The position numbers and the translations under genes are program-made. This document shows, in pieces, positions 1 through 32,444 of a stretch of DNA of 64,000 nucleotides. Position 1 is the first letter of the stretch; every line of letters begins with the position of its first letter. The DNA is from Bacteroidia bacterium (GTDB taxonomy: Bacteria > Bacteroidota > Bacteroidia > Bacteroidales > VadinHA17): contig JAPLDX010000065.1 of assembly GCA_026391215.1 (NCBI GenBank), forward strand, positions 330 through 64,329. The letters are read 5' to 3'. The notes beneath the pieces were generated by a model. It worked only from the letters and a program-made list of their open reading frames with translations, was not told the DNA's origin and made no database searches.

Positions 1-664
1 CAGGATTAACTATAAGATATGGTTGTGACGGCGCCTTGCCTGTGCTGAAACCTCCGATGGCAAAGCCTCCTTTCGGTCCCTTGTCACCATCAGATACATA
101 GATCCGTACTCCTTCATTATACACAGCAAATACTGTCTGCCCTGTTTTATTCTTTACCTCAAATAAAGCTTCGGTGTTTGACGCTGTGGCTGGGGCTTTG
201 ACCTTTAAGTTCTTCAGGGGACCTCCAAGGCTGTCTGCCACCATGGCATAGGGTACTGACCACAGCGGTTCTATACCCATGACTGTACTGTTGATCTTAG
301 TCCTGATATATAAAGGTGTCTTTGTCCAGTCTATAAGACTGAAATCACCTGTCTGGGTAAGTCCGCCTCCGACAACTATGTTAAACAATCCCTGGGTATT
401 GGGATAGATATCATCATGCAATTCTTCCCATAACACAACCGGGATTTCCGTGTCATCAGTTGTTATAGCAATATAAATATCTATCGGGCCTTCAAGAGGT
501 CCGTCTCCATCACGGGCAATGGCCTGGTAATTAAATCCCTGAGGGATCTGGCTCAGGGCGGAGGGCGCAGGGCAAAGAGTAAAAAGACACACGACATACG
601 ACACAAGCTTTGCCCACCGAAGCCAGGCGAAGGTGGGACATAAGGGGGAGAGTTTTGTTTTCAT
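1..664 (-). CDS. Tail-fibre-like secreted protein, paralogue 3 (5' part only, runs off window start)
   Basis: ATG at 664-662; absent from the ORF track because the window edge truncates it. My translation MKTKLSPLCPTFAWLRW..SALSQIPQGFNYQAIARDG..LWSVPYAMVA..FEVKNKTGQTVFAVYNEGVRIYVSDGDKGPKGGFAIGGFSTGK is collinear with the N-termini of 930..5720 and 6016..8790. Confidence 0.8.
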   Translation of the reverse strand, partial: MKTKLSPLCPTFAWLRWAKLVSYVVCLFTLCPAPSALSQIPQGFNYQAIARDGDGPLEGPIDIYIAITTDDTEIPVVLWEELHDDIYPNTQGLFNIVVGGGLTQTGDFSLIDWTKTPLYIRTKINSTVMGIEPLWSVPYAMVADSLGGPLKNLKVKAPATASNTEALFEVKNKTGQTVFAVYNEGVRIYVSDGDKGPKGGFAIGGFSTGKAPSQPYLIVNP

Positions 665-780
665 AGCTCAGGATCATAAAGATTTGAATATAGCTAAACT
701 CCTTAATTAATTGTCGAATATTTTAATTTAATATTCAACATTTTGACGAACGGAGGAAAATATGTTATAAACGATTTACA

Positions 781-929
781 ATATACCCCCCTCCCGCAAC
801 GCGGGATCCCCCCCGAAGGGGGGCTAAATCCAGCCCTCATGCATATACTTATTACATACGGGTTTTAGGCCCCCTTCAGGGGGCAGGCCCACGACTTGCG
901 TGGGCCGGGGGTTCTTAGACCGTTGCGAA
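781..929. repeat. Nested-palindrome intergenic element, copy A
   Basis: ACCCCC(785-790) pairs with GGGGGT(907-912). Encloses hairpins TCCCGC-AAC-GCGGGA, C6-7-GAA(G)-G6, GCCCCC-TTCA-GGGGGC and GGCCCACG-ACTTG-CGTGGGCC. Ends with CCGTTGCG next to the stop codon at 930. Confidence 0.85.
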
Positions 930-3900
930 CTATTTTTCTTCTATCAGCTGCTGAACAAGTACTTCGAGTTTCTCAATTTGTCGCTGCTGATCCTGTATAG
1001 CCTTGACAAGTACCGGAACTAGTTTATTATAATTTATACCCCAGAGTTCATGAGATTCGTCTTCAGGTCTGCTTACAACCTCAGGCATAACATCATATAC
1101 CTCCTGTGCTATCAATCCGATATTTTTTTCACCATCACCTAGAATAAGATCATCACCGCTAAATTCAGAAGTGTGCTGAATGTACTGTTTTGGTATGATC
1201 TTCATTATTTCATTCAGCCCGTAGGCCAGGTCCTCCTGTTCAGATTTTACCCGTGTATCTGAATAGGTATCCCAAGCATATCCTTTTGCCTTTTTAACTG
1301 GGTCGTTTGGAAGCTGCAGATAATAATTTGCATCAGGAGGAAGCATACCTATGGTGACCGGTTTGCCGAAATGGTTATACGTGGCGCCATAACCATATGC
1401 AAAATAAGTTCCATTTGACCAGATGGCTTCTAAGCCATTTATTCTCAACGCTATACCCGAAGATATTCCACTATTAAGGTTTGCTAGACCGGCAACATCA
1501 AGTTTATATGAAGCAGGGTTGATACCGATTCCGACATTTCCATTGTTATTGTCAATCCTCATTCGTTCAACAAAACTGGTGCTGAAGTCAGCCTGAGCTA
1601 TACTTGTGGAATAACCAAACACAAGATCATTAGTGGGATCCGTAGTTAAAAACGCAACTCTGGTACCAGAAAGTGCAACCATACCTCCTCTCGACTGACC
1701 AGAATAATGTGCAATCAACGCAGCATTATTGCCCCATGCCTCAACAGAATATTGGGGGTCTTTTGTATAGATACCCACTTTCCCGTTAAATGCAAGTTTT
1801 TCAGATCCATCTGTAAAATCACCCCATATTAAAGGATTAGATGTTGAGTTCTGATCAATATACAATTTGTAATCGCCATCTTCATTCATTCCTGCAGCTC
1901 TTCCGATAAAAACGTTGCGACTGCCATGCGACTGACGGCCAGTCTGCCAACCGACATATGTATTTCCAAAACCCGCCACATTCGAATAGCCTGCATCATA
2001 GCCGAGGAATGTATTTTCATTTGGACCATTTGTAAGAAATCCGGCATAAGATCCGTAAAAAACGTTATGCGTACCTGCTGCCAGCGAGAATCCTGCCTTT
2101 TCCCCTACTAAAGTGTTCAGGTTGTTTGTGGTCAATCCGGCACCAGTAAGCAAGCCAATAGCAACATTTGAATTCCCTTCTGTAATATTATTTCCAGCCT
2201 GGTTACCTATCAGAATATTGTCAAAACCTGATGTTAATTTATTTCCCGTTTGTGAACCAATAATTACATTGTTATAACCTGAAGTTATTTTCCAACCTGC
2301 ATTATAACCCAGAGCCACGTTATTTGCACCAGTCCCAAAGGATATCTCTGATGCCATACCTGCCTGGTACCCAATGTAAGTATTGTAAGATCCGCTGGTA
2401 TAATTTCTTCCTGCTTTATATCCTATAAACGAGTTGAAACTCGAGTTACTTGCACGCCCTGCCTCAAAGCCCAGGAAAGTATTATAGGCACCTGTACTAT
2501 TTTTGTAACCGCTCTCCCTTCCTATAAAAACATTGTAACTTCCTGCAGGGTCAGCGCCTCCGATATTATTAAAGCCCGTACGGTATCCCAGGAAAACATT
2601 ACTGCTCCCGGTGGTATTTTTCATACCTGCCTGGTAACCCATAAAAGAGTTGTACTGACCGGCATTGGTTTTACCACTTCCTTTGCCCAGGAACACGTTG
2701 TAGGAGTTAGTGTTGTCATAACCAGCTGAATCACCAAGAAATACGTTACTGTTCCCGGAAGTGCCTGAGTATCCTGAAAAGTGACCTACAGCAACATTAT
2801 TTGATCCGTCAGAATTTCCATAGCCTGCCATATATCCAAGAAACACATTATCTGAACCTGAGTAAATGTTAAGGCCGGCGCCATTACCAAGAAAAACATT
2901 ATTGGTACTTGAATAGTTATGCCAGCCAGCCTGATTGCCGATCATAACATTGTTTGAAGCAGATGAATTACCTGCCAGTCCACCTCCGGATGCTTCAAAA
3001 CCAAGATAAATATTGTTGCTCCCGTTATAATTTTGAAAGCCCGCCTTATTGCCTAAGAAAACATTATTATTCCCGGAAAAATTATAATAGCCTGCCAGGT
3101 TACCAAATATGAGATTGAATTGTCCACCTTCATTATTTACCCCTGCACTCTGGCCGAGGAAAACATTTGCTCCTCCAACGGTATTCTTTTTACCGGCATA
3201 AGCGCCTATAAAGACATTGTTGTCACCGGTTGTATTTGATGTTCCAGATTGAGATCCCATGAAAACATTATCATATCCTTCATAGTTAGCATAACCTGCA
3301 GAGTCTCCGATAAATACGTTATTCCATGAGTTGCCATTATTATATCCGGCTTTATAACCAAGGAAGACATTTTTATTTCCATTATAATTGTTGAAACCGG
3401 ACTGGAAACCCAGAAAATTATTGAAACGCCCATAAGTATTGGAATATCCTGACTGACTTCCTACGAATACATTATAAGATGCAGTATCATTTGTGAAGCC
3501 GGCCAGATAACCCAGAAAAACATTCCTTGTTCCGCTTTTATTGCTTTTACCGGATTCATAACCCATCATTATATTATATTTCCCGGTTGTAATGTATTTC
3601 CCGACTGATTCTCCTATCAGGACATTTTGCTTCCCATGAGTAGCCAATTCACCTGCCATGCTGCCAATATAGACATTACCTCCTTCTGACAGGTGAGACC
3701 GGCCGGCTTTATAACCAATAAAAGTATTGTCGCTCCCGGTGTTTTTCCAACCAGCCTGATAACCCAGAAATGCATTATATTGTCCTGTATTAATTTTTCC
3801 GCTTCCTGTTCCCAGGAAAACATTATAACTATCTGTGTTATCATATCCTGCCGAATCACCCAGGAACACATTACTGGAACCTATTACTCCCGAATAGCCT

Positions 3901-5720
3901 GATACGTTTCCGATAGCTACATTATTTGATCCGGACTGATTGGAATTTCCAGCCTTAAAGCCTATGAAAACATTATTAATTCCATCCATATTTGCCTTCC
4001 CTGATTCAAAGCCCAGCATGACATTGTAGCTGCCTGTCGAAATATTGGCTCCGACTGACTGGCCTATCAGTACATTCTGTTCTCCATTAGTGGCTTTCTC
4101 TCCTGCCCTGCTGCCTATATATACATTCCCTCCTTGTGACTGGTTTGAACGGCCGGCTAAATAACCTATAAAAGTATTGTCATTTCCGGTATTTGTTAAT
4201 CCAGCCTGATAACCCATGAATGAATTATATTGTCCTGTATTGATTTTACCGCTTCCCTTGCCAAGAAAAACATTAAAACTGTTTGTGTTGCCATATCCTG
4301 CCGAATCACCCAGGAATACATTACTGGAACCAGATGTTCCCAGATAGCCCGATAAGTTCCCAATCGTAACATTATTTGATCCGGTCAGATTCCCCGAACC
4401 TGCTTTGAATCCGAGAAAAACATTGTTGCTCCCGTCAGTGTTATTAAGACCGGTTTCATATCCTACAAATGAATTGTAAAGCCCATCGTTAATATTGGAA
4501 CCACTTTTCTCTCCAATAAAATAGTTTTCGGGAGTCATATCCATGAAGTAAGATGCTTCTCCTTTCCCTGCAGATGTAAAACCACCTATTGCAAATCCTC
4601 CTTTGGGGGATTTAGCTTCAGTATTAACATAAACCCTTGTACTGTCGCGTGTTACACGCAGATACTCTTCATCTATACCTTTGGCCGTCCCATAACCGCC
4701 AATTGCAAATCCTCCCTTTACTCCTTTATCAGAAGGTTCCTTGTCCAGATAGATCCTCACACTGTCGTTGCTCACCATAAACAGATCCTGCGGCTTGCCT
4801 TTTGCTGTACCATAACCTCCGATAGCAAAGCCGCCTTTTACTCCCTTTGTAATATCAGTATCTGCATTGTCAATATATACCCTTACACTGTCGTCACTTA
4901 CGAAAAGGAGATCCTGTGGATCTGACTTGTTTGTACCATATCCCCCTATGGCAAATCCCCCTTTTGCACCTTTACCTGATTGATCAATATAGATTCTTAC
5001 CGTATCAGGTTTTACTATCAGATATGGTTGCGATGGCCCCTTTACCGTACCAAAACCTCCTACTGCAAACCCTCCTTTTGGACCCTTTGACCCATCATCT
5101 ACATATATCCTTACTCCCTCATTATAAACTGCAAATACAATCTGGCCGTCCTTGTTCTTAACCTCAAACAATGATTCATCCATTACTTCTGTTGAACCTG
5201 CCACTTCCAGCTTGCTGAAAGGACCTTCAAGTTTTTCAGCTACCCTGGCAGTATCAGCCACTATTGCATGGTCAGCAACAATCGCATTTTCAGCTACCAT
5301 GGAATAGGGTACTGACCATAATTTCGCATTACCCATATTTTTCCACGATCCCTGGTAATAGAGCTGGACTTTAAGAAATAACGGAGTTGCCGTCCAGTCT
5401 ATATCCGAAAATTCTGCCGCTGCACCCGATAGCCTTGATCCTGTACCTACTACAAGTCCAAAAACACCGGATGCATTTGTTCTGACGGATGAATGAAGCT
5501 CCTCCCATACAATAGCCGGTGTGAGGGTATCGGAGAGGATAGCCATTTTCGCCTGTATTTCAGTATTTGCAACAGGAACTCCATTACTGTTCCGGGCTAC
5601 TGCCTGGTAATTAAATCCCTGCGGGACCTGGCTCAGGGCGGAGGGCGAAGGGCTCAGGGCAAGAAGACACAAGACACAAGACACAAGACACAAGGGGGAG
5701 AGTTTTGGTTTCATGATCAT
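930..5720 (-). CDS. Giant (1596 aa) secreted tail-fibre-like repeat protein with C-terminal S74-type intramolecular chaperone domain
   Basis: Signal peptide. N-domain QVPQGFNYQAVAR..LWSVPYSM is shared with both neighbours. Five ~35-aa repeats VRIYxD..KGxKGGFAIGGYGT, then ~1000 aa of 14-15-aa NxFxGxxAGxxNTxGxxN repeats. C-terminus YSDTRVK..IGLIAQEV..INYNKLVPVLVKAIQ plus a coiled-coil tail fits the SDxRxK / GxIAQE pattern of endosialidase-chaperone (Peptidase_S74) domains. Confidence 0.8.
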   Translation of the reverse strand: MIMKPKLSPLCLVSCVLCLLALSPSPSALSQVPQGFNYQAVARNSNGVPVANTEIQAKMAILSDTLTPAIVWEELHSSVRTNASGVFGLVVGTGSRLSGAAAEFSDIDWTATPLFLKVQLYYQGSWKNMGNAKLWSVPYSMVAENAIVADHAIVADTARVAEKLEGPFSKLEVAGSTEVMDESLFEVKNKDGQIVFAVYNEGVRIYVDDGSKGPKGGFAVGGFGTVKGPSQPYLIVKPDTVRIYIDQSGKGAKGGFAIGGYGTNKSDPQDLLFVSDDSVRVYIDNADTDITKGVKGGFAIGGYGTAKGKPQDLFMVSNDSVRIYLDKEPSDKGVKGGFAIGGYGTAKGIDEEYLRVTRDSTRVYVNTEAKSPKGGFAIGGFTSAGKGEASYFMDMTPENYFIGEKSGSNINDGLYNSFVGYETGLNNTDGSNNVFLGFKAGSGNLTGSNNVTIGNLSGYLGTSGSSNVFLGDSAGYGNTNSFNVFLGKGSGKINTGQYNSFMGYQAGLTNTGNDNTFIGYLAGRSNQSQGGNVYIGSRAGEKATNGEQNVLIGQSVGANISTGSYNVMLGFESGKANMDGINNVFIGFKAGNSNQSGSNNVAIGNVSGYSGVIGSSNVFLGDSAGYDNTDSYNVFLGTGSGKINTGQYNAFLGYQAGWKNTGSDNTFIGYKAGRSHLSEGGNVYIGSMAGELATHGKQNVLIGESVGKYITTGKYNIMMGYESGKSNKSGTRNVFLGYLAGFTNDTASYNVFVGSQSGYSNTYGRFNNFLGFQSGFNNYNGNKNVFLGYKAGYNNGNSWNNVFIGDSAGYANYEGYDNVFMGSQSGTSNTTGDNNVFIGAYAGKKNTVGGANVFLGQSAGVNNEGGQFNLIFGNLAGYYNFSGNNNVFLGNKAGFQNYNGSNNIYLGFEASGGGLAGNSSASNNVMIGNQAGWHNYSSTNNVFLGNGAGLNIYSGSDNVFLGYMAGYGNSDGSNNVAVGHFSGYSGTSGNSNVFLGDSAGYDNTNSYNVFLGKGSGKTNAGQYNSFMGYQAGMKNTTGSSNVFLGYRTGFNNIGGADPAGSYNVFIGRESGYKNSTGAYNTFLGFEAGRASNSSFNSFIGYKAGRNYTSGSYNTYIGYQAGMASEISFGTGANNVALGYNAGWKITSGYNNVIIGSQTGNKLTSGFDNILIGNQAGNNITEGNSNVAIGLLTGAGLTTNNLNTLVGEKAGFSLAAGTHNVFYGSYAGFLTNGPNENTFLGYDAGYSNVAGFGNTYVGWQTGRQSHGSRNVFIGRAAGMNEDGDYKLYIDQNSTSNPLIWGDFTDGSEKLAFNGKVGIYTKDPQYSVEAWGNNAALIAHYSGQSRGGMVALSGTRVAFLTTDPTNDLVFGYSTSIAQADFSTSFVERMRIDNNNGNVGIGINPASYKLDVAGLANLNSGISSGIALRINGLEAIWSNGTYFAYGYGATYNHFGKPVTIGMLPPDANYYLQLPNDPVKKAKGYAWDTYSDTRVKSEQEDLAYGLNEIMKIIPKQYIQHTSEFSGDDLILGDGEKNIGLIAQEVYDVMPEVVSRPEDESHELWGINYNKLVPVLVKAIQDQQRQIEKLEVLVQQLIEEK
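5632..5694 (-). repeat. Heptamer-phased tract inside the signal-peptide coding region, including perfect (AAGACAC)4
   Basis: Plus strand: CTCAGGG CGGAGGG CGAAGGG CTCAGGG CAAGAAG ACACAAG x4. Perfect AAGACAC x4 at 5664-5691. Analogous tracts at 552-607 and 8728-8776 in the paralogues. Confidence 0.9.
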
Positions 5721-5868
5721 ATGGGTATTACGGTTTGACGGTACGATGGTGAGTCATAATAAGGTTGGAATCAAGAATAAAATAGAAAGTTAGTATAAAA
5801 AGGAGATGCAGTCAAATATTTTTGACGAGGGGAAGAGAAAATTCTATTAAAGTATGTTTATGAATGAT

Positions 5869-6015
5869 GTACCCCCTTCCGGCTAAAGCCGGATCCCCCC
5901 TGAAGGGGAGCTAAATCCAGTTCTCAAACAAACTCCTGTAGAAAACAGGTTTTAAGCCCCCTCAAGGGGGCAGGCCTCGCTTCAGCGAGGCCGGGGGTCC
6001 TTTGAGCCGTTGCGC
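5869..6015. repeat. Nested-palindrome intergenic element, copy B
   Basis: Same architecture as 781..929 with stems TCCGGC-TAAA-GCCGGA, CCCCCC-TGAA-GGGGAG, GCCCCC-TCAA-GGGGGC and GGCCTCGC-TTCA-GCGAGGCC; outer ACCCCC/GGGGGT. Confidence 0.85.
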
Positions 6016-8790
6016 CTATTTATTCTTCAGCTCCTCCACTTCTTTTTTAAGCTCATCTATCTGCTTCTGCTGATCCTTGACAGCCTGAACAAGGATGGCA
6101 GTTAAAACACCATAATTAACCGCTTTGTATCCTTTTTCATCAGTTCTGACAGCGTCAGGGAACGCTTTTTCTAAATCCTGAGCTATTACTCCAATATACT
6201 TTGTGTCATCTGGTTCTTCTCCTTTTACGACATCTTTCTTATAATTATACTCTATGACAGCAAGATCCCTTACTTTGTCAATGACCCCATCACCATCTAT
6301 AGACCTTACATTCTGCTTCAAACGAATATCAGAAGGTGTCCAAACTCCAGTGGCATACGCTGACCCTGAAATATATAATCTGTAGATGGATGATGGTGCC
6401 GAATTGATCCCTACATATGCGTTGAATCTGAGGTATTCATTATAAAAGTCACCGTAAATGAGAGCGCCGGTTGAGGAATAACCATAGTTATCGATATATA
6501 ATTTATCAGATCCAGTTTCATAATATCCTGCCCAATGCCCAATGAAAACATTATTTGAACCGGTGGTGTTTGTATAACCTGCCGCGGGACCAATAATGGT
6601 ATTATACTCCCCGGAAATATTATCATGACCCGACTCATGTCCGAAGAATGCATTTCCTTTTCCGGTTGTTGTGGCATAGCCAGCCATGTGTCCAACTATC
6701 GTATTGTAGTTATTAGTAATTACTTTCCCGGCAGCATTACCCACGATTGTGTTGTATGAGCCTGTTGCACTTGTACCTGCAATATTTCCCAGGTAAACGT
6801 TATGCTCGCCTGCCGTACTTGCATACCCGGCTTCTGAGCCTGCATAAAGATTATAACCTCCGGAAATATTTGAACTTCCTGCCAGGTTGCCGATAAAAGT
6901 GTTATAAGTCCCCGTTGTATTATCATACCCTGCATCGCTTCCGAGTATCACATTCTTTTCTCCTGTTGTTGTGGCCTGACCAGCATTATTTCCTATAAGA
7001 ACATTATAATTGCCAAGATTATCATAACCGGCAAAGTTTCCCATGAAGACTCCGGCTTTTCCCATGTTATTGTACCCGGCATCAGTTCCGATAGCCACGT
7101 TGTAGCTTGCAGTGTCATTATAGTATCCGGCGCCCATACCAATGAAAATATTTTGTTTCCCTTTCAGATTGGTGTAACCTGACTCCTGTCCGAGAAAGAC
7201 ATTGAACCTGCCGTTATTATTATATCCTGCAAGGGTACCGATAGCCACGTTATATGATCCTGAACTTGTGGCTGTATGCTTTGCAAGTTCTCCTGCACCA
7301 TTTCCAATAAAAACATTTGATACGCTTGTCTCATTTGATAATCCTGCATTCTTCCCGAGAAAGACATTATAGCTTCCTTCAGTATTATTAAAACCTGTCG
7401 AATCCCCCAAAAATGTATTAGCAGATCCTTCAGTTGTACTATAACCTGACATATAGCCTAGGAATAAGTTGTATAATCCAGTTGTAATTGACTTACCGCT
7501 GTTATGTCCGATGAAATAGTTCTTGGGAGTAAGCTGGAGAAAGCTTTCTGATCCGGCTTTGGCTGTACCGAATCCGCCGATTGCAAAGCCTCCCTTGGGA
7601 CCTTTAACCGGATTCTGGTCCACATAAACCCTTACGCTGTCGCTTGTTACTGTCAGGAAATTCTGCGAAGTACCTTTATCAGTTCCGAAACCGCCGATGG
7701 CAAATCCGCCTTTAGGACCTTTTGCGACTCCGTCATCAACATATACCCTTACACCCTCATTATATACAGCAAAGACTGTCTGCCCGTTTTTATTCTTTAC
7801 CCTGAATAAGGCAGAGTCAGGTGAAGTCTCAACACCTTTTATCACCAGCTTGGATTCCGATCCGACTATATTAGCTGCAATATAGTCAGAGTTTACCTTT
7901 AGCTGTGCGTCTATTTTATTATCTGCATCTTTCAGATTCGAAGCTATTTTGATATAATTCGATGATGAGTTTGCAGTGTAACTGCCATTATCATTCAATC
8001 CTGCACCTGTTTCTATCGCATTGGCTTCAGTTTTCAGATTAGTTATGTCCGTATTGAATCCAGAGGTGCTGGTTTCAACTGTTTTTATCTTCGAGTCGAG
8101 CAAATCATCTGCGTTTTTTAAACTTGTTGCTGATGAAATATAATCTGCTGACGTATTTGCAGTGTAACTGCCATTATCATTCAATCCTGCACCTGTTTCT
8201 AATGCAGAGGTGCTGGATTCAACTGTTTTTACCTTTGAGTCGAGCAAATCATCTGCATTCTTTAAACTTGTGGCTGCTGAAATATAATTCGCTGATGTAT
8301 TCGATGAATAGCTTCCATTTGTATTTAAACCTCCTCCGGTTTTTATTGCATCAATTTCAGTTTGCAAACCTGTTATGCTCCCCCCGTTACCTGAAATCAT
8401 TGAATATGGTACGGACCATAATTTTGAGGAACCCATATACTTCCATGCACCCTGGTAATAGATCTGGATTTTAAGATATAGAGGCGTTTTAGACCAGTCA
8501 ATTACACTGAATGTCGCAGCTGATCCTGATTGTTTTATTCCGGTTCCGATGACGATACCGAATACCCCGGATGCATTCGTTTTGACCGATGAATGTAGCT
8601 CTTCCCATACTACAACAGGTGTTAGCGTATCGGAGAGAATACTCGCTTTTACCTGGAAGGTGGTCGATGCAATTGCCTGACCTGAGCTATTACGAGCTAC
8701 AGCCTGGTAATTAAAGCCTTGCGGCACCTGAGAAGATAAAAGATAAAAGGAAAAAGACAAAAGAAGTGTAAGGAGGAGTTTTGTTTTCAT
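6016..8790 (-). CDS. Tail-fibre-like secreted repeat protein (924 aa) with C-terminal S74-type chaperone domain
   Basis: Same N-domain (QVPQGFNYQAVARNSSG..LWSVPYSM). Three GAGLNDNGSYTANTSADYISSATSLKNADDLLDSK repeats, two KGPKGGFAIGGFGT repeats and NxFxGxxAG repeats. C-terminus PSDIRLKQNV..IGVIAQDLE..VNYGVLTAILVQAVK plus coiled coil. Confidence 0.8.
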   Translation of the reverse strand: MKTKLLLTLLLSFSFYLLSSQVPQGFNYQAVARNSSGQAIASTTFQVKASILSDTLTPVVVWEELHSSVKTNASGVFGIVIGTGIKQSGSAATFSVIDWSKTPLYLKIQIYYQGAWKYMGSSKLWSVPYSMISGNGGSITGLQTEIDAIKTGGGLNTNGSYSSNTSANYISAATSLKNADDLLDSKVKTVESSTSALETGAGLNDNGSYTANTSADYISSATSLKNADDLLDSKIKTVETSTSGFNTDITNLKTEANAIETGAGLNDNGSYTANSSSNYIKIASNLKDADNKIDAQLKVNSDYIAANIVGSESKLVIKGVETSPDSALFRVKNKNGQTVFAVYNEGVRVYVDDGVAKGPKGGFAIGGFGTDKGTSQNFLTVTSDSVRVYVDQNPVKGPKGGFAIGGFGTAKAGSESFLQLTPKNYFIGHNSGKSITTGLYNLFLGYMSGYSTTEGSANTFLGDSTGFNNTEGSYNVFLGKNAGLSNETSVSNVFIGNGAGELAKHTATSSGSYNVAIGTLAGYNNNGRFNVFLGQESGYTNLKGKQNIFIGMGAGYYNDTASYNVAIGTDAGYNNMGKAGVFMGNFAGYDNLGNYNVLIGNNAGQATTTGEKNVILGSDAGYDNTTGTYNTFIGNLAGSSNISGGYNLYAGSEAGYASTAGEHNVYLGNIAGTSATGSYNTIVGNAAGKVITNNYNTIVGHMAGYATTTGKGNAFFGHESGHDNISGEYNTIIGPAAGYTNTTGSNNVFIGHWAGYYETGSDKLYIDNYGYSSTGALIYGDFYNEYLRFNAYVGINSAPSSIYRLYISGSAYATGVWTPSDIRLKQNVRSIDGDGVIDKVRDLAVIEYNYKKDVVKGEEPDDTKYIGVIAQDLEKAFPDAVRTDEKGYKAVNYGVLTAILVQAVKDQQKQIDELKKEVEELKNK

Positions 8791-8882
8791 ATTTATATGA
8801 GTTTAGAATCCTTTTTATCAGAAAAATAATCCGTAAGTTATGCTAAAAATCAACAGAATCAAGTTTTTTTTGCCGAATGTCA

Positions 8883-9146
8883 TGTACTCACCCCCTTCCT
8901 TCGCTCCGCTCAGGCATTCCCCCTCTCTGCTAAAGCAAAGAGGGTGAAGATTACCTTACAAAAACTGAGAAATAAATGAACTTGGTATCAGAATTTTAAG
9001 AATCTAAAATGCAGAATTAAAATATAGAAAAAGCACTTAGATTGATACCCATTTCCTTAGCCTAACTACCAGATAATAAATTATTTATTCAAATTAATCA
9101 CCTCCCTCTTTGCTTTAGCAGAGAGGGGGGCGGGGGGGTGAGTACA
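8883..9146. repeat. MITE-like element: ~50-70-nt terminal inverted repeats flanking an AT-rich core
   Basis: Left arm TGTACTCACCCCC..CCCCCTCTCTGCTAAAGCAAAGAGGGTGAAGATTA (8883-8952). Right arm TAATCACCTCCCTCTTTGCTTTAGCAGAGAGGGGGGCGGGGGGGTGAGTACA (9095-9146) is its reverse complement, apart from a 23-nt insertion in the left arm. Confidence 0.8.
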
Positions 9147-10283
9147 TTAAGATAATCTCCCCTTATAATCCTCATACCCGAACTCCCGGAGAAGTCTGAA
9201 CTTCCCTTCCCTGGTCCATATTCCAATTGAAGGATGGTGTACTCCGTTGAAGGTGGTGGTTTTCACCATTGTATAATGGATCATATCGAGGAAGATGATC
9301 CTATCGCCTGGTTTTAGCTCTTTATCAAATGACCAGTCTCCCACAAAATCACCTGACAGGCAGGAGTTGCCTCCTAACCTGTATGTTGGTTTATCGTCAA
9401 CGGGATCGGTGGCACCAATGATCTTTGGTTTATAAGGCATTTCAAGGCAGTCGGGCATGTGGGCAGTAAAGGATGCATCCAGAATGGCAGTCTTAATACC
9501 CTGATTTTCAACAATATCTTCAACCGTTGCAACCAGCTCTCCTGTTTCCCAGGCAAAAGCGCTGCCCGGCTCCAGGATCACATGCAGCCCTGTCCTTTCC
9601 CTGAAATCCCTGATTATTTTAATAAGATGTATAGTGTTATAATTCTTCCCTGTTATCAGATGTCCGCCGCCCATGTTTATCCATTTCAGTCCGGGAAAGA
9701 ACCTGCCGAATTTAGCTTCAACAACCTTAAGCACCTTTTCAAGCGCATAGGAATCCGCTTCAAAAAGAACATGAAAATGGAGTCCTTCAATTCCTTCCGG
9801 CAATCCGTCAGCAAGATCTCCTGCTGTTATACCAAGCCGTGAACCCGGAGAGCAAGGATTATATAAGCTGTTACTGATCTCTGAAAACTCAGGATTGATC
9901 CTTAATCCAGGGGATATTTTTTTCGAATATATTTTGATAATATTCGAATATTTATTGAATTGTTTAAGTGAATTGAAAGTGATGTGTGAGCTGTATTTAA
10001 GAATGAAACTAAATTCATCCTCTTTATAAACCGGCGAATAGGTATGGGCAGGAGATCCTATTTCTTCAAAGCAGAGCCTTGCTTCATGAAGTGAACTTGC
10101 AGCTGCACCTGAGATATATTCCTTAAGGATATCAAAAACGCCCCACATGGCAAATCCCTTGAATGCAAGGATGATCTCAGCTCCTGATTCATCAGCGACA
10201 CGTTTAATTAAAGAAAGATTATTTCTAAATCTTTCCTCATCAATCACATAGCATGGAGAGGGTATTTTATTATAATCGATCAT
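9147..10283 (-). CDS. nspC: Carboxynorspermidine/carboxyspermidine decarboxylase
   Basis: MIDYNKIPSPCYVIDEERFRNNL..ILAFKGFAMWGVF..SSLHEARL is the typical NspC N-terminus. I place the start at the ATG at 10283 (M12 of the tracked ORF), 1 nt after the upstream stop. Confidence 0.85.
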   Translation of the reverse strand: MIDYNKIPSPCYVIDEERFRNNLSLIKRVADESGAEIILAFKGFAMWGVFDILKEYISGAAASSLHEARLCFEEIGSPAHTYSPVYKEDEFSFILKYSSHITFNSLKQFNKYSNIIKIYSKKISPGLRINPEFSEISNSLYNPCSPGSRLGITAGDLADGLPEGIEGLHFHVLFEADSYALEKVLKVVEAKFGRFFPGLKWINMGGGHLITGKNYNTIHLIKIIRDFRERTGLHVILEPGSAFAWETGELVATVEDIVENQGIKTAILDASFTAHMPDCLEMPYKPKIIGATDPVDDKPTYRLGGNSCLSGDFVGDWSFDKELKPGDRIIFLDMIHYTMVKTTTFNGVHHPSIGIWTREGKFRLLREFGYEDYKGRLS

Positions 10284-14982: not shown

Positions 14983-15026
14983 CCTTTGTACCCTTGAACC
15001 GTTGAACCATTGCACCTTTGTACCAT
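14983..15026 (-). repeat. 8-nt degenerate tandem array (CAANGG core) abutting the stop of 15026..16135
   Basis: Plus strand CCTTTGTA CCCTTGAA CCGTTGAA CCATTGCA CCTTTGTA CCATTA. In gene sense this reads TAATGG TACAAAGG TGCAATGG TTCAACGG TTCAAGGG TACAAAGG. Confidence 0.9.
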
Positions 15027-16135
15027 TAGAGTTTTATCAGGATCTTCTTTTTATATAAAATTAAAGCAATTAACCATATCAAAAGTACCTGTATTAATGC
15101 AAACATAAGGCTTCCTATCATATTTCCAGCAACAGGGACACAAACATGCGAATAAAACCAGTTATAAAGAGTAACCTTTTCATCTCCGACCGGGATCTTA
15201 ATGAACAACATCAGTCTTGTCCATATACCTGCAAGGAAATAAGAAAACAGGGCATTCATGCCAAATACTGTGAAGAAGGTTCCCCACTTCTGGAATCTGA
15301 GCACATCTGCAAGAAAATATATTGCAGCAAGAACTGCCATTGCCCATCCTGCTGTATAGAGCACATATGAACTCGTCCATATCGGCTTGTTGATCGGGAA
15401 AAGCATACTCCATAAAAGACCAAGTCCTATTGAAGAAGCCCCGAGCAGGAGGAGCTTCAGGACTGTTTTGCCTGAAGGTGTCTCTTTTCCCAGCATTTCT
15501 CCTATGAAATAACCGATAATGACAGTGCATATTGCGGGCAGAGTACTAAGCAGACCCTCGGGATCAAAAGGTCTCCCGAATTCCTTGTACATGTGGTTTG
15601 TTCCCAGTATTGCAGCATCCATTTTCTGCACAAAATTTCCTTCGAGACTAAAGGGATCATATCCTCCGAGAAATGCCAGCAATGCCCAGTAGAGCAACAG
15701 GAGAGCTGCTGCAACTATCCAAAGATACTGACGCCTGACAGTCAGACATATTATAGCGCCCAGACCATAAGCAATGGCGATTCGCTGCAGAACGCCCATT
15801 ATCCTGAGTGTTGAATAGTCCCTGTTGAAATAAGGAAATATTGCAAGGAAAAGGCCAACGGCAAATATGGTCACCATGCGTCTGAATATTCTGAACAGGG
15901 ATCCGGCATTTATTTCATGTCCGTATTTTTTAAAGGAGTACCACATTGAGACGCCCACGATGAAAAGGAAGAACGGGAATACAAGGTCGGTTGGTGTGCA
16001 TCCGTTCCACGCTGCATGACGTAATGGCGGATATACATAAGTCCAGCTTCCGGGAGTGTTCACAATGATCATAAAGGCGATCGTCATACCCCTGAAAATA
16101 TCGAGTGAAACAAGCCGGTTACTGCTTTTTGCCAT
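15026..16135 (-). CDS. DUF5009 / HGSNAT-like polytopic membrane acyltransferase
   Basis: RLVSLDIFRGMTIAFMIIVNTPGSW..HAAWNGCTPTDLVFPFFLFIVGVS resembles heparan-alpha-glucosaminide N-acetyltransferase-type proteins; multiple TM segments. Confidence 0.6.
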   Translation of the reverse strand: MAKSSNRLVSLDIFRGMTIAFMIIVNTPGSWTYVYPPLRHAAWNGCTPTDLVFPFFLFIVGVSMWYSFKKYGHEINAGSLFRIFRRMVTIFAVGLFLAIFPYFNRDYSTLRIMGVLQRIAIAYGLGAIICLTVRRQYLWIVAAALLLLYWALLAFLGGYDPFSLEGNFVQKMDAAILGTNHMYKEFGRPFDPEGLLSTLPAICTVIIGYFIGEMLGKETPSGKTVLKLLLLGASSIGLGLLWSMLFPINKPIWTSSYVLYTAGWAMAVLAAIYFLADVLRFQKWGTFFTVFGMNALFSYFLAGIWTRLMLFIKIPVGDEKVTLYNWFYSHVCVPVAGNMIGSLMFALIQVLLIWLIALILYKKKILIKL

Positions 16136-29846: not shown

Positions 29847-30754
29847 AACAATTCATTTTCCTTAAAACAAACCTGTCCGAAGATATCCTCAACATCTTCT
29901 TTGGTGATCTTTGTAAAATCCTCCTCCCTGGGAGTTATGATGACACCTCCCAGGTCCACGGCTGCCGGACTTAGCAGAATCTGATCATTTCCTCCATCGA
30001 AAAACTGAGTTGGCCTGTGCTGTTTCCGGGGGATGATATGAATGATCCAGCCTGAGGAAGAATGTCCGGCCAGTATATTGAGCATCGGTTCAGGTCTGTC
30101 TGACTGTACCTCTGCGAACCTGTCATAAATACTGTCAAAAGCCTTAGCCAGCTTTTCCATGTTATAGCCTTTAAGCGTAATTATACCACGCAGATATCGA
30201 GTCCATTTCCAGATTTCAATACCGCGATTTTCTGATAATTGCTGTGCAAGCCTACCATTCCGGAAATCTTTTTCGATCGGCATGAATCCGCTGTTGCCTG
30301 CCTGGAAATGAAAATGATCGGGAGCGGAAGCTCCGCATTGAGGGCCGTTATAGAATATCGTAAATTGAGGCAGCGCTTTTGCAAGAGAAAGCATTGTATT
30401 AAAGTTATTCCTTATCCGCTGATCTGTATGAAGTTCTGAAGGAATGGTAATATGCCTTGTGAAGATCGGGAAGGGATTAACCAGTACCGTAAGATTGTTG
30501 CCGAAAAGGACTCCCCTTTGTTCCGGCGGCCTGTTCTTTTCGCAAAGGAAACATGGTCTTGCTTCTATTGATTTTGTGTCAACATTTGCAGCCGAGGATC
30601 TTATCCTTTCCGGATTGAACTGAACAAAAACCTCAAAATTTCCGAAATCAAGCTTTTTGGTCTTAACCTTTTCAAGCTGACCGTAATTGACTTTCGCCAG
30701 CTCCCATTCACGGAGCTGAGTGGTGAAGAGTCTATTTATTTTGTTTGAAAACAC
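29843..30754 (-). CDS. DUF4922-like HIT/GalT-type nucleotidyl(phospho)transferase-like protein
   Basis: CFLC.. and GASAPDHFHFQAG (HxHxQ histidine-triad-like motif); 4-nt overlap with the SpoIID gene. Confidence 0.5.
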   Translation of the reverse strand: MFSNKINRLFTTQLREWELAKVNYGQLEKVKTKKLDFGNFEVFVQFNPERIRSSAANVDTKSIEARPCFLCEKNRPPEQRGVLFGNNLTVLVNPFPIFTRHITIPSELHTDQRIRNNFNTMLSLAKALPQFTIFYNGPQCGASAPDHFHFQAGNSGFMPIEKDFRNGRLAQQLSENRGIEIWKWTRYLRGIITLKGYNMEKLAKAFDSIYDRFAEVQSDRPEPMLNILAGHSSSGWIIHIIPRKQHRPTQFFDGGNDQILLSPAAVDLGGVIITPREEDFTKITKEDVEDIFGQVCFKENELL

Positions 30755-30791
30755 TCTTAATTAAAATTAGTGATAGGGATTGTTAAGAATC

Positions 30792-30930
30792 ATACCACCT
30801 CCCTCCCGACAAGTCGGGAGTACTCCTCCTCTCAAGAGGAGGAGAAAGTTAAATAAATTTATATTCAAAACTTTCCCCTCCTTTGAAAAGGAGGGGTGTC
30901 ATGCCCGAAGGGCCATGACGGGGTGGTTAT
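30792..30930. repeat. Nested-palindrome element, copy E (five hairpins)
   Basis: CTCCCGAC-AA-GTCGGGAG; CTCCTCCTCT-CAAG-AGAGGAGGAG; GAAAGTT..AACTTTC; CCCCTCCTT-TGAA-AAGGAGGGG; GTCATGCCC-GAA-GGGCCATGAC. Outer ACCACC/GGTGGT. Confidence 0.85.
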
Positions 30931-30956
30931 TACTATTTTTAATAAGTCTATTCATA

Positions 30957-32444
30957 TTATTTATTTTCTGATTCAATATTCAGCCTTTTCCTTGCCAGCA
31001 ACTCGATCGTTCTCAACCTGTCCTTGTACAGGTTATGGGTATTCATTCTGTTTACATCGAGGGCCGCATCAGTGTTTCCCTCCCACCTGCGGCAAAGGTA
31101 CAGAGGTTCATAGATCCGTCCGATCTGGTAGTTACGGCAGATTGCAAGTCCCACAGCATAATCTTCGCCATAGCTGACATTAGGCACCCTGATATCTCTC
31201 AGGACAAGAGTATAGAATGCCCTTGGAGCGCCTAAACCGTTAATCCTCAATGCATTATTTCTTCCATTTTCAGGGGTCCATTCTTTATGATCGATAAGTC
31301 CGGGAGGCAGATCATCAAGATTGAAATTGACCATTTTATATGATCCTACGACCATGGCACATTTCTGGTTATAAAATGCATCTACCACCCTGCTTATTAC
31401 AGTATTGTCAATATAGAGGTCGTCGCTGTCAAGCTGGATTGCGAATTTTCCGCACTTCTGATGAAATACTCCCTCATTCCAGCATCCCCCGATACCCAGG
31501 TCTTTCCGTTCGGGAATGATGTGAACTACCCTGTCATCCACTTTAGTAAAGGCCTTGATCAGATCAGTTGTACCGTCACTTGAATAATTATCGATCACTA
31601 TCAGATTAAACTTGAATTTTGCCTCCTGGCTCAGAACTGACTTTATAGCATCGCGTATTGTCTTTACCCTGTTCTTTACAGGTATGATCACTGAAGCTTC
31701 ATATTCAAATCCTTCAGCATTGAAGCTTATCGATTTAAATTCCGGTTTCAGCCAGCCTTTCATCTTTTTGAGGTGATCAGTGCAGGCTGCTTCCATTTCT
31801 ATCTGAACCGCCCTGTTCCGTGGATCAACATAATCGAATTGCTTTTCGCCTGATTTACGTGTATCACGTTCAATATCGGTGTAAAGCATCTCCGGAATAT
31901 GAACAAGGGAATGCTTCTGTGAAACTTTAAGTCTGAGGTCGTATAATCCCGCAAAAACATACTCCTGGTTCATACTTTTACAAGCTTCTTTAAATGCTGA
32001 TGACCTGTAAAGCATGAGTGATCCGAAATTGAAGTCATCCCGCAGGCTTCCTTCCTGGTAATCGATTACAGGATAGGGTGAAAGCTGGTTGTTCCTGTTC
32101 TCGAAATAATCGGAATATACCATTCCTGCACTTGTGTTTTCACAAACCTGTACCATTCTCTTAAGGGCAAATTTGCCAAGGTCGAGAGAAAATGATTTGG
32201 TATAGATCAGGACAAATTCAGTCTGGACCAGATCAGCTATCTTCTTCAGGGATGCAGTGGTAGTAAATCCATCCGATTCAAGGACTGAAACACCTGTATC
32301 TGAAAAGTCCGTACCGGAACCTTTCCGTGAAACAACAACAATTTTTGCAACCTCCCCCGAGTCTTTTAATGATCGCACTGTAAATTGTGCAGCTTCATTA
32401 TCGGATAATGGCAATAAGCAAGTGATTTTCTTTTCCATGGTCAT
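30957..32444 (-). CDS. Glycosyltransferase family 2 protein with extra N-terminal GT-A-like half
   Basis: C-terminal half [42 protein letters not shown] (GT2 DxD). The N-terminal ~240 aa look like a degenerate second GT-A domain (..[23 protein letters not shown]). Confidence 0.7.

What the first reader, a model, noticed from the sequence alone, without database searches (positions are those of the whole stretch)
1..8790. Three tandem paralogues of giant tail-fibre-like surface proteins with phage-type self-cleaving chaperone ends, in a non-phage context
Three consecutive minus-strand genes (partial, 1596 aa, 924 aa) share a signal peptide, a ~110-aa N-domain (QxPQGFNYQA(V/I)AR..LWSVPY(S/A)M) and KGPKGGFAIGGFGT repeats. 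They then diverge into different repeat bodies: ~1000 aa of NxFxGxxAG units in one, GAGLNDNGSYTANTS..SLKNADDLLDSK units in the other. Both complete copies end in SD(T/I)R(V/L)K..GxIAQ(E/D)..coiled coil, the pattern of the endosialidase/tail-spike intramolecular chaperone (Peptidase_S74) that cleaves itself off at the Ser. The predicted Ser codon is at 1260-1262 (110-aa module) and the module spans 6019-6333 in the shorter gene. No phage structural, lysis or integrase genes are visible nearby, and there is no T9SS-type C-terminal domain. How such fibres are exported and anchored by the cell is unclear. The variable middles suggest an adhesin or receptor-binding repertoire.
Basis: partly seen in the sequence, partly recalled or inferred. 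Interest (0 to 1): 0.6.

Follow-up and report, generated by a model that had tools for sequence, protein, structure and literature searches.

The report
Bacteroidales MAT-like self-cleaving surface fibres
Three neighbouring chromosomal genes of an uncultured sediment Bacteroidales bacterium encode exported, phage-tail-fibre-like proteins with a self-cleaving end; they are ordinary members of a very large family whose closest studied relatives are the 'mosaic adhesive trimer' fibres described in Bdellovibrio in 2024.

Summary
There are three tandem minus-strand genes: one cut by the contig end, one of 1596 aa and one of 924 aa. All share a signal peptide, a ~115-aa N-domain and KGGFAIGG modules. 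The two complete ones end in a Peptidase_S74 domain (Pfam above cut-off; Ser/Lys dyad S1487/K1492 and S820/K825).

One correction: both complete proteins contain the 17-residue NxxxGxxAG body (about 50 versus 19 units).

The design is already described. It matches the MAT (mosaic adhesive trimer) fibres of Bdellovibrio (Caulton 2024), whose supplement lists Bacteroidota members. The N-domain matches NCBIfam Bdello_MAT_N significantly, but below its cut-off.

The family is very large:
- 18 N-domain frames in this genome, with S74, FISUMP, C1q and other tips.
- Present in 100 of 151 genomes sampled across the order.
- About 27,800 50%-identity clusters.

The context is housekeeping and syntenic, not prophage.

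Three further results:
- A small T9SS-tagged partner protein co-occurs with the family and often sits directly upstream. This genome has two copies, neither beside the window genes.
- A conserved GTCAA-N6-TTGAC palindrome lies at the promoters.
- 7-nt tandem arrays lie inside the signal-peptide codons.

Verdict: real, a new member of a known kind, moderate interest.

The parts
2..664 (-). 5' part of fibre gene 3 (P0003, 221 aa in the window). It has a signal peptide, the N-domain, an ALFEVKNK module and the first KGGFAIGG unit. It continues to the contig end (332-aa open frame).
930..5720 (-). Fibre gene 2 (P0001, 1596 aa).
5631..5720 (-). P0001 signal peptide (residues 1-30; predicted cleavage ALS|Q31). 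It is encoded largely by two 7-nt tandem arrays.
   Evidence: Read from the sequence; TRF. No signal-peptide predictor was available.
5286..5630 (-). P0001 conserved N-domain (residues 31-145), a beta-sandwich.
4536..5183 (-). P0001 LFEVKNK module plus five ~40-aa KGGFAIGG units.
1935..4526 (-). P0001 body: about 50 units of the 17-residue NxxxGxxAG repeat. It contains a 450-nt internal duplication at 3601-4424.
1263..1934 (-). P0001 tip region (residues 1263-1486) with KLYID..GDF and two VGI..P capping-loop-like motifs.
933..1262 (-). P0001 S74 intramolecular chaperone/protease module (S1487-K1596) with a coiled-coil end. The Ser codon is at 1260-1262.
6016..8790 (-). Fibre gene 1 (P0002, 924 aa).
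8386..8730 (-). P0002 N-domain (residues 21-135). The signal peptide is at 8731-8790.
7831..8373 (-). P0002 insert of three GxGLN...SLKNADDLLDSK units.
6505..7521 (-). P0002 body: 19 units of the 17-residue repeat.
6019..6333 (-). P0002 S74 module (S820-K924).
5811..5826 (-). GTCAAAAATATTTGAC palindrome upstream of P0001. About 20 nt further on lies a TAACTTT -7-like box (5786-5792). Degenerate copies lie upstream of P0002 (~8858-8874) and P0003 (~734-747).
5630..5694 (-). Two heptanucleotide arrays: GCCCTNN x4.4 at 5630-5660 and CTTGTGT x4.4 (100% match) at 5664-5694. Both lie inside the P0001 signal-peptide codons. Equivalent arrays are at 8733-8764 (P0002) and at 550-573 and 586-605 (P0003).

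Best explanation
The three genes are chromosomal paralogues of a very large Bacteroidota family of Sec-exported, probably trimeric fibre proteins. The family is built like the MAT (mosaic adhesive trimer) fibres of Bdellovibrio.

Proposed mechanism, step by step:
1. A signal peptide is cleaved before a nearly invariant Gln. (Read from the sequence.)
2. A constant ~115-aa beta-sandwich N-domain is the cell-proximal mounting end. (The fold is shown by prediction. The role is inferred, as it is in Bdellovibrio.)
3. The shaft is made of KGGFAIGG modules and 17-residue NxxxGxxAG repeats, and differs in length between the paralogues. (The repeats are shown. The trimeric beta-helix is inferred.)
4. 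The distal tip differs between paralogues.
5. The C-terminal Peptidase_S74 module trimerises through its coiled coil and templates folding of the fibre. It then cuts itself off at S1487 or S820 using K1492 or K825, exposing the binding tip. (The domain and dyad are shown. Cleavage is inferred from K1F endosialidase, T5 pb1, MyRF and Bd3182.)

The genome keeps 18 such N-domain frames with S74, FISUMP, C1q and other tips. This amounts to a repertoire of binding specificities.

The most likely mounting route is indirect. A small protein made of a conserved ~50-aa head plus a type A T9SS sorting domain co-occurs with the family and is often encoded directly upstream of a fibre gene. It would be exported and A-LPS-anchored by the T9SS and would hold, or carry, the fibre through its N-domain. 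This genome has two such genes, acting in trans for the window genes. This step is inferred from gene linkage only.
For: S74 domain:
- Pfam hits above cut-off.
- PDB sequence matches to the phage S16 long tail fibre (6f45) and the MyRF ICA domain (7dc3), with the Ser and Lys aligned.
- S, D, R and K are invariant in 16 tip homologues.
- The AF2 model of the S74 part has pLDDT 75-92.
- The best Foldseek hits are MyRF ICA, six Bdellovibrio MAT fibre entries and the K1F chaperone.

N-domain:
- NCBIfam Bdello_MAT_N at E 9e-11, 8e-10 and 7e-5.
- 17 hits in this genome, one at 60.7 bits, against 0 of 14 control genomes.
- A confident 7-strand beta-sandwich (pLDDT 86) with no PDB relative, as Caulton et al. 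report for MAT.

Architecture and mosaic tips. MAT definition and FCB-group members.

Size of the family: more than 2000 full-length hits named 'tail fiber domain-containing protein [Bacteroidales]'; 100 of 151 genomes in the order, 1-26 copies each; 27,843 representative clusters.

Non-phage context: housekeeping neighbours. The same neighbours recur beside family members in related genomes: carboxynorspermidine decarboxylase in 9 loci, a saccharopine-dehydrogenase-like gene in 8 and TrkH in 5.

Partner:
- A 170-aa T9SS-tailed ORF lies directly upstream of paralogue C61.
- The head is found in 75 of 151 genomes. The 2x2 table is 74/26/1/50, Fisher p = 3e-19, Spearman 0.80.
- 34 same-strand head-to-N-domain pairs lie 470-650 bp apart in 24 genomes.
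- 9 of 10 head ORFs carry PF18962/TIGR04183.
- SprA is present in 147 of 151 genomes, so T9SS presence alone does not explain the link.
Against: - The N-domain scores are below NCBIfam's curated cut-off (42, 39 and 23 bits against 60) and cover only the first half of that model for most copies.
- Trimer formation, cleavage and surface location are all untested.
- The monomer model of the tip is poor (pLDDT below 50) and the Foldseek E-values are weak (1e-3 to 0.1).
- The three window genes have no adjacent partner.
- Only 2 partner genes serve 18 fibres in this genome.
- 26 of 100 N-domain-positive genomes show no partner head.
- The co-occurrence statistics ignore phylogeny.
- No known mechanism lets a Sec-exported trimer cross the outer membrane by piggy-back.
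- The lifestyle of the organism is unknown, so 'adhesin' is a generic guess.
Confidence: 0.8

Rival explanations
1. An ordinary prophage, tailocin or contractile-injection-system tail-fibre module whose remaining genes lie beyond the contig end.
For: The S74 domain and the tail-fibre-like repeats are typical of phage fibres. The contig ends 329 bp beyond the window start, so that side is unseen.
Against: - All three proteins, and essentially all relatives (98 of 103), carry N-terminal signal peptides. Phage and tailocin fibres assemble in the cytoplasm.
- The visible side is housekeeping.
- The same neighbours recur next to family members in other genomes.
- There are 18 dispersed copies in this genome, and no phage genes appear among the recurrent neighbours.
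Confidence: 0.03
2. Trimeric autotransporter adhesins (type Vc secretion), as some JGI annotations of homologues say.
For: The repeats are glycine- and asparagine-rich and resemble the YadA head. Some homologues carry Pfam YadA_head and the name 'trimeric autotransporter adhesin'.
Against: There is no YadA-type C-terminal membrane anchor in either complete protein. The C-terminus is an S74 chaperone that is expected to be cut off. The conserved end is the N-terminus, not the C-terminus.
Confidence: 0.02
3. The fibres are real and self-processing, but they are not mounted by the T9SS-tagged partner. They could be released, carried on outer-membrane vesicles, held by another surface component bound by the N-domain, or remain periplasmic.
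For: - The window genes have no adjacent partner.
- 26 of 100 N-domain-positive genomes show no detectable head.
- Bdellovibrio MATs work without any T9SS.
- A 'tail fiber domain-containing protein' was detected in Tannerella forsythia vesicle preparations. Whether it belongs to this family was not checked.
Against: The co-occurrence is strong, and head-to-fibre gene pairs recur in 24 genomes.
Confidence: 0.3
4. The fibre genes are phase-variable contingency loci. Gain or loss of one 7-nt unit in the signal-peptide arrays would switch a paralogue on or off, as CTCTT repeats do in Neisseria opa genes.
For: - 5 of the 6 period-7 arrays in 1-9300 lie in the three signal-peptide regions.
- The same is seen in other paralogues.
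- Lag-7 self-similarity is raised in relatives: 0.41 against 0.31-0.35 at other lags.
- 7 is not a multiple of 3.
Against: - All 17 own copies and at least 98 of 103 related copies are in frame. Real contingency loci usually show many OFF alleles.
- The arrays have only 3-5 units.
- This genome has many 7-9-nt arrays at gene ends anyway (earlier finding e1-2837054).
Confidence: 0.1

Closest known systems
Bdellovibrio bacteriovorus MAT (mosaic adhesive trimer) fibres, S74 subgroup, e.g. Bd3182 (Caulton et al. 2024, PMC10769870; PDB 8onc/8onb/8ojn)
   Same: - Signal peptide, then a constant beta-rich N-domain with no PDB relative.
- A long repeat shaft and exchangeable tips.
- An S74 end with an SDxxxK motif.
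- Many paralogues per genome (21 there, 18 here).
- TNF/C1q-like tips also occur here (paralogue C61).
- The paper's Table S3 already lists Bacteroidota (FCB group) members.
   Different: - The N-domain scores below the NCBIfam Bdello_MAT_N cut-off and aligns mainly to its first half.
- The host is an uncultured sediment Bacteroidales with no evidence of predation.
- FISUMP tips are common here.
- A T9SS-tagged small partner and a GTCAA-N6-TTGAC promoter palindrome accompany the family here. Neither is mentioned in the passages of the Caulton paper that I read. I did not search Bdellovibrio genomes for either.
Phage tail spikes and fibres with a C-terminal intramolecular chaperone (Peptidase_S74): K1F endosialidase (3gw6), T5 pb1 (4uw8), S16 gp37 (6f45)
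   Same: A C-terminal S74 module with a Ser-Lys dyad and a coiled coil. A VGI..P neck motif before the cleavage site.
   Different: These proteins have a signal peptide and a cell-type N-domain in place of a virion-attachment domain. The context is chromosomal housekeeping genes.
Myelin regulatory factor (MyRF) ICA domain (7dc3)
   Same: It is the best structural match to the modelled C-terminus and also a sequence match. The auto-cleaving trimerisation module is the same.
   Different: A eukaryotic membrane-bound transcription factor. Only the S74 module is shared.
Neisseria opa genes (pentameric CTCTT repeats in the signal-peptide coding region)
   Same: Short tandem repeats whose length is not a multiple of three lie inside the hydrophobic signal-peptide codons of a paralogous surface-protein family.
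   Different: Here the arrays have only 3-5 units and no out-of-frame alleles were seen. The resemblance is positional only. The comparison rests on my own knowledge and was not tested.

Membership tests
Peptidase_S74 (PF13884) intramolecular chaperone | Profile match above the curated cut-off at the C-terminus | tested here: met
   28.8 and 55.4 bits against a cut-off of 22. There are seven such hits in the genome.
Peptidase_S74 (PF13884) intramolecular chaperone | Catalytic Ser-Lys dyad in an SDxxxK motif | tested here: met
   SDTRVK (S1487/K1492) and SDIRLK (S820/K825). These residues are invariant in 16 homologues and align with the motif in 6f45 and 7dc3.
Peptidase_S74 (PF13884) intramolecular chaperone | Autoproteolytic release after trimer folding | not testable with these tools
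   This needs expression of the wild type and a Ser-to-Ala mutant.
MAT (mosaic adhesive trimer) fibre family | Conserved beta-rich ~130-aa domain directly after the signal peptide, homologous to the Bdellovibrio MAT N-domain | tested here: inconclusive
   NF053851 matches at E 9e-11 to 7e-5, but 23-42 bits against a cut-off of 60, over model positions ~2-88 of 162. One paralogue reaches 60.7 bits and another covers positions 3-147. The model is a beta-sandwich with no PDB relative. Homology is likely, but this is not the curated Bdellovibrio subfamily.
MAT (mosaic adhesive trimer) fibre family | One constant base with exchangeable C-terminal tip domains among paralogues | tested here: met
   18 N-domain frames with S74 (7), Fib_succ_major, C1q, Phage_fiber_2 plus an unknown tip, and other tips.
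MAT (mosaic adhesive trimer) fibre family | Trimeric beta-helical fibre | not testable with these tools
   Only monomer prediction is available. There are weak Foldseek hits to Bd3182, Bd2133, Bd1334 and Bd2439.
MAT (mosaic adhesive trimer) fibre family | Cell-surface location and binding of a target cell or ligand | not testable with these tools
   The genome comes from an uncultured organism.
T9SS cargo (type A/B C-terminal sorting domain) | Por_Secre_tail / TIGR04183 domain at the C-terminus | tested here: not met
   No hit in P0001-P0003. None of the 25 genomic CTD hits lies in these genes.
Trimeric autotransporter adhesin | C-terminal YadA-type membrane anchor | tested here: not met
   Pfam finds only S74 at the C-terminus.
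Prophage or tailocin tail-fibre module | Neighbouring phage structural, lysis or integration genes, and cytoplasmic assembly (no signal peptide) | tested here: not met
   Housekeeping neighbours, syntenic neighbours in relatives and signal peptides. The side beyond the contig end cannot be seen.

The most novel reading that the evidence does not exclude
In Bacteroidales, MAT-type fibres may form a phylum-scale two-component surface display system that is not described in the literature I could search.
- A tiny T9SS type A cargo, consisting of a conserved ~50-aa 'TQGFQQ' head plus the sorting domain, would be exported and A-LPS-anchored. It would serve as the socket or carrier for the fibres' constant N-domain.
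- One or two partner genes would then mount a whole repertoire of tail-less fibres (2 partners for 18 fibres here).
- The repertoire would be a regulon, controlled through a GTCAA-N6-TTGAC operator that overlaps the -33 promoter element.
- Individual genes might be tuned by heptanucleotide arrays in their signal-peptide codons.
Probability: 0.3. Interest if true: 0.7.

Novelty: new member of a known kind. Interest (0 to 1): 0.35.

Why it matters
MAT fibres were presented in 2024 as prey-recognition devices of a predatory bacterium. This locus shows the same design as a routine, highly expanded part of the surface-protein inventory of free-living, uncultured Bacteroidales. It is found in two thirds of the sampled genomes of the order and in tens of thousands of sequence clusters. 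Even so, the base domain has no Pfam model and only a Bdellovibrio-specific NCBIfam model.

How any MAT fibre is held on the cell is an acknowledged open question. The gene-linked T9SS-tagged partner makes that question testable in Bacteroidota. For this particular window, however, the finding adds members to a known kind. It is not a new kind.

Tried and rejected
- A secretion or anchoring gene recurring next to the 18 paralogues in this genome. Only FISUMP-domain proteins recur.
- Recurrent neighbours in 77 related loci. They are housekeeping genes, which shows synteny but no dedicated machinery.
- Whether the precomputed Pfam family PF26696 is the N-domain. It is absent from the local Pfam copy, and a protein that carries it does not match the N-domain profile. 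It appears in no paper.
- Foldseek search with the N-domain model. Only weak, generic Ig-like hits; none at E <= 1e-3.
- Phase variation. The heptamer arrays are real, but no out-of-frame alleles were found.
- T9SS presence as the explanation for the link between partner and fibre. SprA is in 147 of 151 genomes, so it does not discriminate.
- The sigma-70 promoter and terminator consensus scan was uninformative: 26 sites found against 23 expected.
- A literature search for S74 in Bacteroidetes returned nothing.
- Direct profile-profile comparison with a Bdellovibrio MAT N-domain was not possible, because no Bdellovibrio sequence could be fetched with these tools.

Full report
**Observation**

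The window begins at base 330 of a 66,147-bp contig in a 3.39-Mb, 135-contig, 98.9%-complete genome. The third frame stays open to contig base 1, so gene 3 is cut by an assembly break and nothing can be read upstream of it.

The translations show the stated signal peptides, the QVPQGFNYQA...LWSVPY(S/A)M N-domain, KGGFAIGG units, and the SDTRVK / SDIRLK ... GxIAQ(E/D) ... coiled-coil ends. P0001 and P0002 are 71% identical over the N-domain and about 40% identical over the repeats.

Motif positions:
- KGGFAIGG units: 5, 2 and at least 1 copies, with a 38-42-aa period.
- 17-residue NxxxGxx[AST]G units: about 50 at residues 399-1262 of P0001 and 19 at residues 424-762 of P0002.
- Three GxGLN units, found only in P0002.
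- SDxRxK at residues 1487 and 820.

The only correction is that both proteins share the NxxxGxxAG body. They differ in its length, in the GxGLN insert of P0002, and in a ~225-aa tip region of P0001.

**Domains**

Pfam finds Peptidase_S74 above cut-off in both complete proteins and nothing for the N-domain. NCBIfam finds one family for all three N-termini: NF053851 Bdello_MAT_N ('mosaic adhesive trimer family chimeric fiber protein'). The E-values are 9e-11, 8e-10 and 7e-5, but the scores are below the 60-bit cut-off.

A six-frame search of the genome with that model gives 17 hits. One reaches 60.7 bits and one covers model positions 3-147. There are no hits in 14 control genomes.

P0002's C-terminus matches the phage S16 long tail fibre (6f45) and the MyRF ICA domain (7dc3) by sequence, with the Ser and Lys aligned. 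In an alignment of 16 tip homologues of P0001, the invariant columns include S1487, D1488, R1490 and K1492.

**Structure**

With a 78-sequence alignment, the N-domain folds as a confident seven-strand beta-sandwich (pLDDT 85.9). It has no PDB match at E <= 1e-3. This agrees with the statement in Caulton et al. that the MAT N-domain has no structural homologue.

The monomer model of P0001 residues 1240-1596 is good only in the S74 part (pLDDT 75-92) and is below 50 in the tip. Its Foldseek list is nevertheless telling. The top 24 hits are MyRF ICA (probability 1.0), the Bdellovibrio MAT fibres Bd1334, Bd2133, Bd3182 and Bd2439, and the K1F intramolecular chaperone. The E-values are weak, from 1e-3 to 0.1.

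**What is known**

Caulton et al. 2024 (PMC10769870) define MAT fibres as follows:
- a signal peptide;
- a conserved ~130-aa beta-rich domain;
- a long trimeric fibre;
- variable tips.

In that paper, 13 of 21 members end in an S74 domain with SDxxxK. Cleavage was shown for Bd3182 and abolished by S782A. The authors state that the surface element bound by the N-domain is unknown. Their Table S3 lists members from Saprospiraceae, Salinivirga, Kordia and Dokdonia, among others. The architecture, including its presence in Bacteroidota, is therefore published.

**Size and spread of the family**

- P0002 has more than 2000 full-length relatives. Where named, they are 'tail fiber domain-containing protein [Bacteroidales bacterium]' or 'trimeric autotransporter adhesin'. 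Some carry alternative tips: Fib_succ_major, collagen, End_tail_spike or Phage_fiber_2.
- A profile of 16 N-domains from this genome (A1) finds 27,843 50%-identity clusters at E <= 1e-3. The domain almost always lies at residues ~20-140.
- In GTDB species genomes, the best 80 loci are all from uncultured Bacteroidales, Rikenellaceae or Bacteroidia MAGs from fens, sediments and reactors, often several per genome.
- In 151 genomes drawn evenly across the order, 100 (98 of 148 genera) have the domain, with 1-26 copies and a median of 2.5. This genome's 18 copies is near the top.

**The repertoire in this genome**

The 18 N-domain frames end in the following tips:
- S74: 7 copies.
- Fib_succ_major/FISUMP: for example C134 32049-33905 and C42 1220-2923.
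- C1q: C61, 25.5 bits against a cut-off of 23.7.
- A Phage_fiber_2 repeat plus an unknown tip: C75.
- Cys- or Gly-rich ends: C26.

Several copies sit at contig ends or look frame-broken (C42 5878-6516 with 3732-5918; C134 29526-30215 with 30205-31863).

**Context**

Downstream of the array, from 9 to 40 kb, the genes are housekeeping:
- a carboxynorspermidine-decarboxylase-like gene, a saccharopine-dehydrogenase-like gene and TrkH;
- a sugar nucleotidyltransferase and a kinase;
- NlpC/P60 with an L-Ala-D/L-Glu-epimerase-like enzyme;
- an FAD oxidase, a GH9 enzyme and SpoIID;
- MurQ-like and NagZ-like peptidoglycan-recycling genes.

Among 77 related loci, the recurrent neighbours of family members include the same decarboxylase (9 loci), the saccharopine-dehydrogenase-like gene (8 loci) and TrkH (5 loci). 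No phage genes recur. This is a syntenic chromosomal site. Together with the signal peptides, it excludes an ordinary prophage or tailocin fibre module for practical purposes.

**Export and anchoring**

The proteins have no T9SS domain. Earlier notes of this scan, written on other genomes, mention a small T9SS-tagged partner of such fibres. I tested that lead here.

- One of the 25 Por_Secre_tail hits in the genome is a 170-aa ORF (C61:8186-8695), 10 bp upstream of the C1q-tipped paralogue. A second, orphan copy lies at C100:44637-45110.
- Their mature ~50-aa heads (...S.S.T.GE...TQGFQQ) align with a third head upstream of an N-domain gene in locus L065.
- A profile of the three heads finds the module in 75 of the same 151 genomes.
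- Against N-domain presence, the table is 74 both, 26 N-domain only, 1 head only and 50 neither. Fisher p = 2.6e-19. Spearman 0.80 on copy numbers.
- At least 35 of 145 head hits, in 24 genomes, lie within 1.5 kb of one of the listed N-domain hits. In 34 of them the N-domain follows on the same strand, 470-650 bp after the head. That spacing means a ~170-codon partner gene immediately followed by a fibre gene. This is a lower bound, because only 133 of about 420 non-own N-domain hits were listed.
- Nine of ten head ORFs end in PF18962/TIGR04183 type A sorting domains. The head itself has no Pfam or NCBIfam family.
- SprA is present in 147 of 151 genomes, so the link does not simply reflect T9SS presence.

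I therefore consider a T9SS-exported, surface-anchored partner that binds the N-domain to be the best current hypothesis for mounting. It rests on gene linkage only, and the window genes would have to use the partner in trans.

**Regulation**

Many paralogues share a promoter block: a GTCAA-N6-8-TTGAC palindrome, then about 20 nt, then a TAACTTT box. The right arm of the palindrome can serve as the -33 element and the TAACTTT box as the -7 element. My reading of these as Bacteroidetes-type promoter elements rests on general knowledge.

For P0001 the palindrome is GTCAAAAATATTTGAC at 5811-5826. In related genomes, 44 of 101 upstream regions contain the palindrome with at most one mismatch, most often as GTCAAAAAAACTTGAC. 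The background is 0.085 sites per 280 nt. This independently reproduces a note made on another genome and suggests family-wide control.

**Heptamer arrays**

TRF finds six period-7 arrays in 1-9300. Five of them lie inside the three signal-peptide coding regions; for example, CTTGTGT x4.4 at 5664-5694 is 100% matched. Other paralogues show the same arrangement. Relatives show raised lag-7 self-similarity in that segment.

The arrangement recalls phase-variable opa genes. However, all 17 copies in this genome and at least 98 of 103 related copies are in frame. The arrays are short, and reads could not be checked. I rate phase variation at about 10%.

**Verdict**

It is a new member of a known kind: MAT-like, S74-terminated fibres in an abundant but uncurated Bacteroidota branch.

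- Confidence in the structural and homology reading: about 0.8.
- Confidence in surface-adhesin function: lower.
- Confidence in the T9SS-partner mounting model: about 0.3.

Noticed in passing
window 5630-5694, 8733-8764, 550-605: Heptanucleotide tandem arrays (3-5 units, one 100% perfect) make up the hydrophobic core codons of all three signal peptides. Paralogues on contigs C102, C42, C71, C69 and C134 show the same arrangement.
   Followed up: partly
window 5811-5826 (also ~8858-8874 and ~734-747): A GTCAA-N6-TTGAC palindrome overlaps the -33 region of the fibre promoters. It is found upstream of 44 of 101 family genes in other genomes, against 0.085 expected per region.
   Followed up: yes
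G000 C61:8186-8695 and C100:44637-45110; L065:5354-5911: Small proteins made of a conserved ~50-aa head (TQGFQQ motif) plus a type A T9SS sorting domain. They are strongly linked to the N-domain family in both presence and position across the order. The head has no Pfam or NCBIfam model.
   Followed up: yes
window 665-929 and 5721-6015: The two intergenic regions behind the fibre genes are homologous. Each carries four GC-rich hairpins in series, with compensatory stem changes (for example GGCCCACG..CGTGGGCC against GGCCTCGC..GCGAGGCC). They may be terminator or REP-like cassettes duplicated along with the genes.
   Followed up: no
window ~612-640 (P0003 signal peptide); G000 C42 and C69 paralogues: Small palindromic inserts (CCCACC..GGTGGG; CCCGAG..CTCGGG) sit in frame inside unusually long (38-50 aa) signal-peptide regions of some paralogues.
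   Followed up: no
window 3601-4424: A 450-nt (150-aa) internal tandem duplication, 1.8 copies at 78% identity, within the P0001 repeat body.
   Followed up: no
protein P0123: A 916-aa metagenomic protein with six tandem stretches of the N-domain. This is unlike the usual single N-terminal copy.
   Followed up: no
proteins P0275, P0276 and others: Many S74-ended relatives of the P0001 tip carry a different N-terminal family, PF26696, from a newer Pfam release that is absent from the local library. They do not match this N-domain. The same tips are therefore combined with at least two kinds of base.
   Followed up: partly
G000 C42:3732-6516 and C134:29526-31863: Two paralogues appear split into two overlapping frames. 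This could be a frameshift, a pseudogene or an assembly error. At least four N-domain frames touch a contig end (C128, C91, C17, C69), which suggests the family breaks the assembly.
   Followed up: no
window 13000-40400: A dense set of cell-wall turnover genes: NlpC/P60 with SH3 domains next to an enolase-superfamily epimerase, SpoIID, an amidase-containing 1011-aa protein, MurQ-like SIS and BadF-type kinase genes, and a GH3 (NagZ-like)-beta-lactamase fusion. ORF 15026-16135 has no Pfam family.
   Followed up: no
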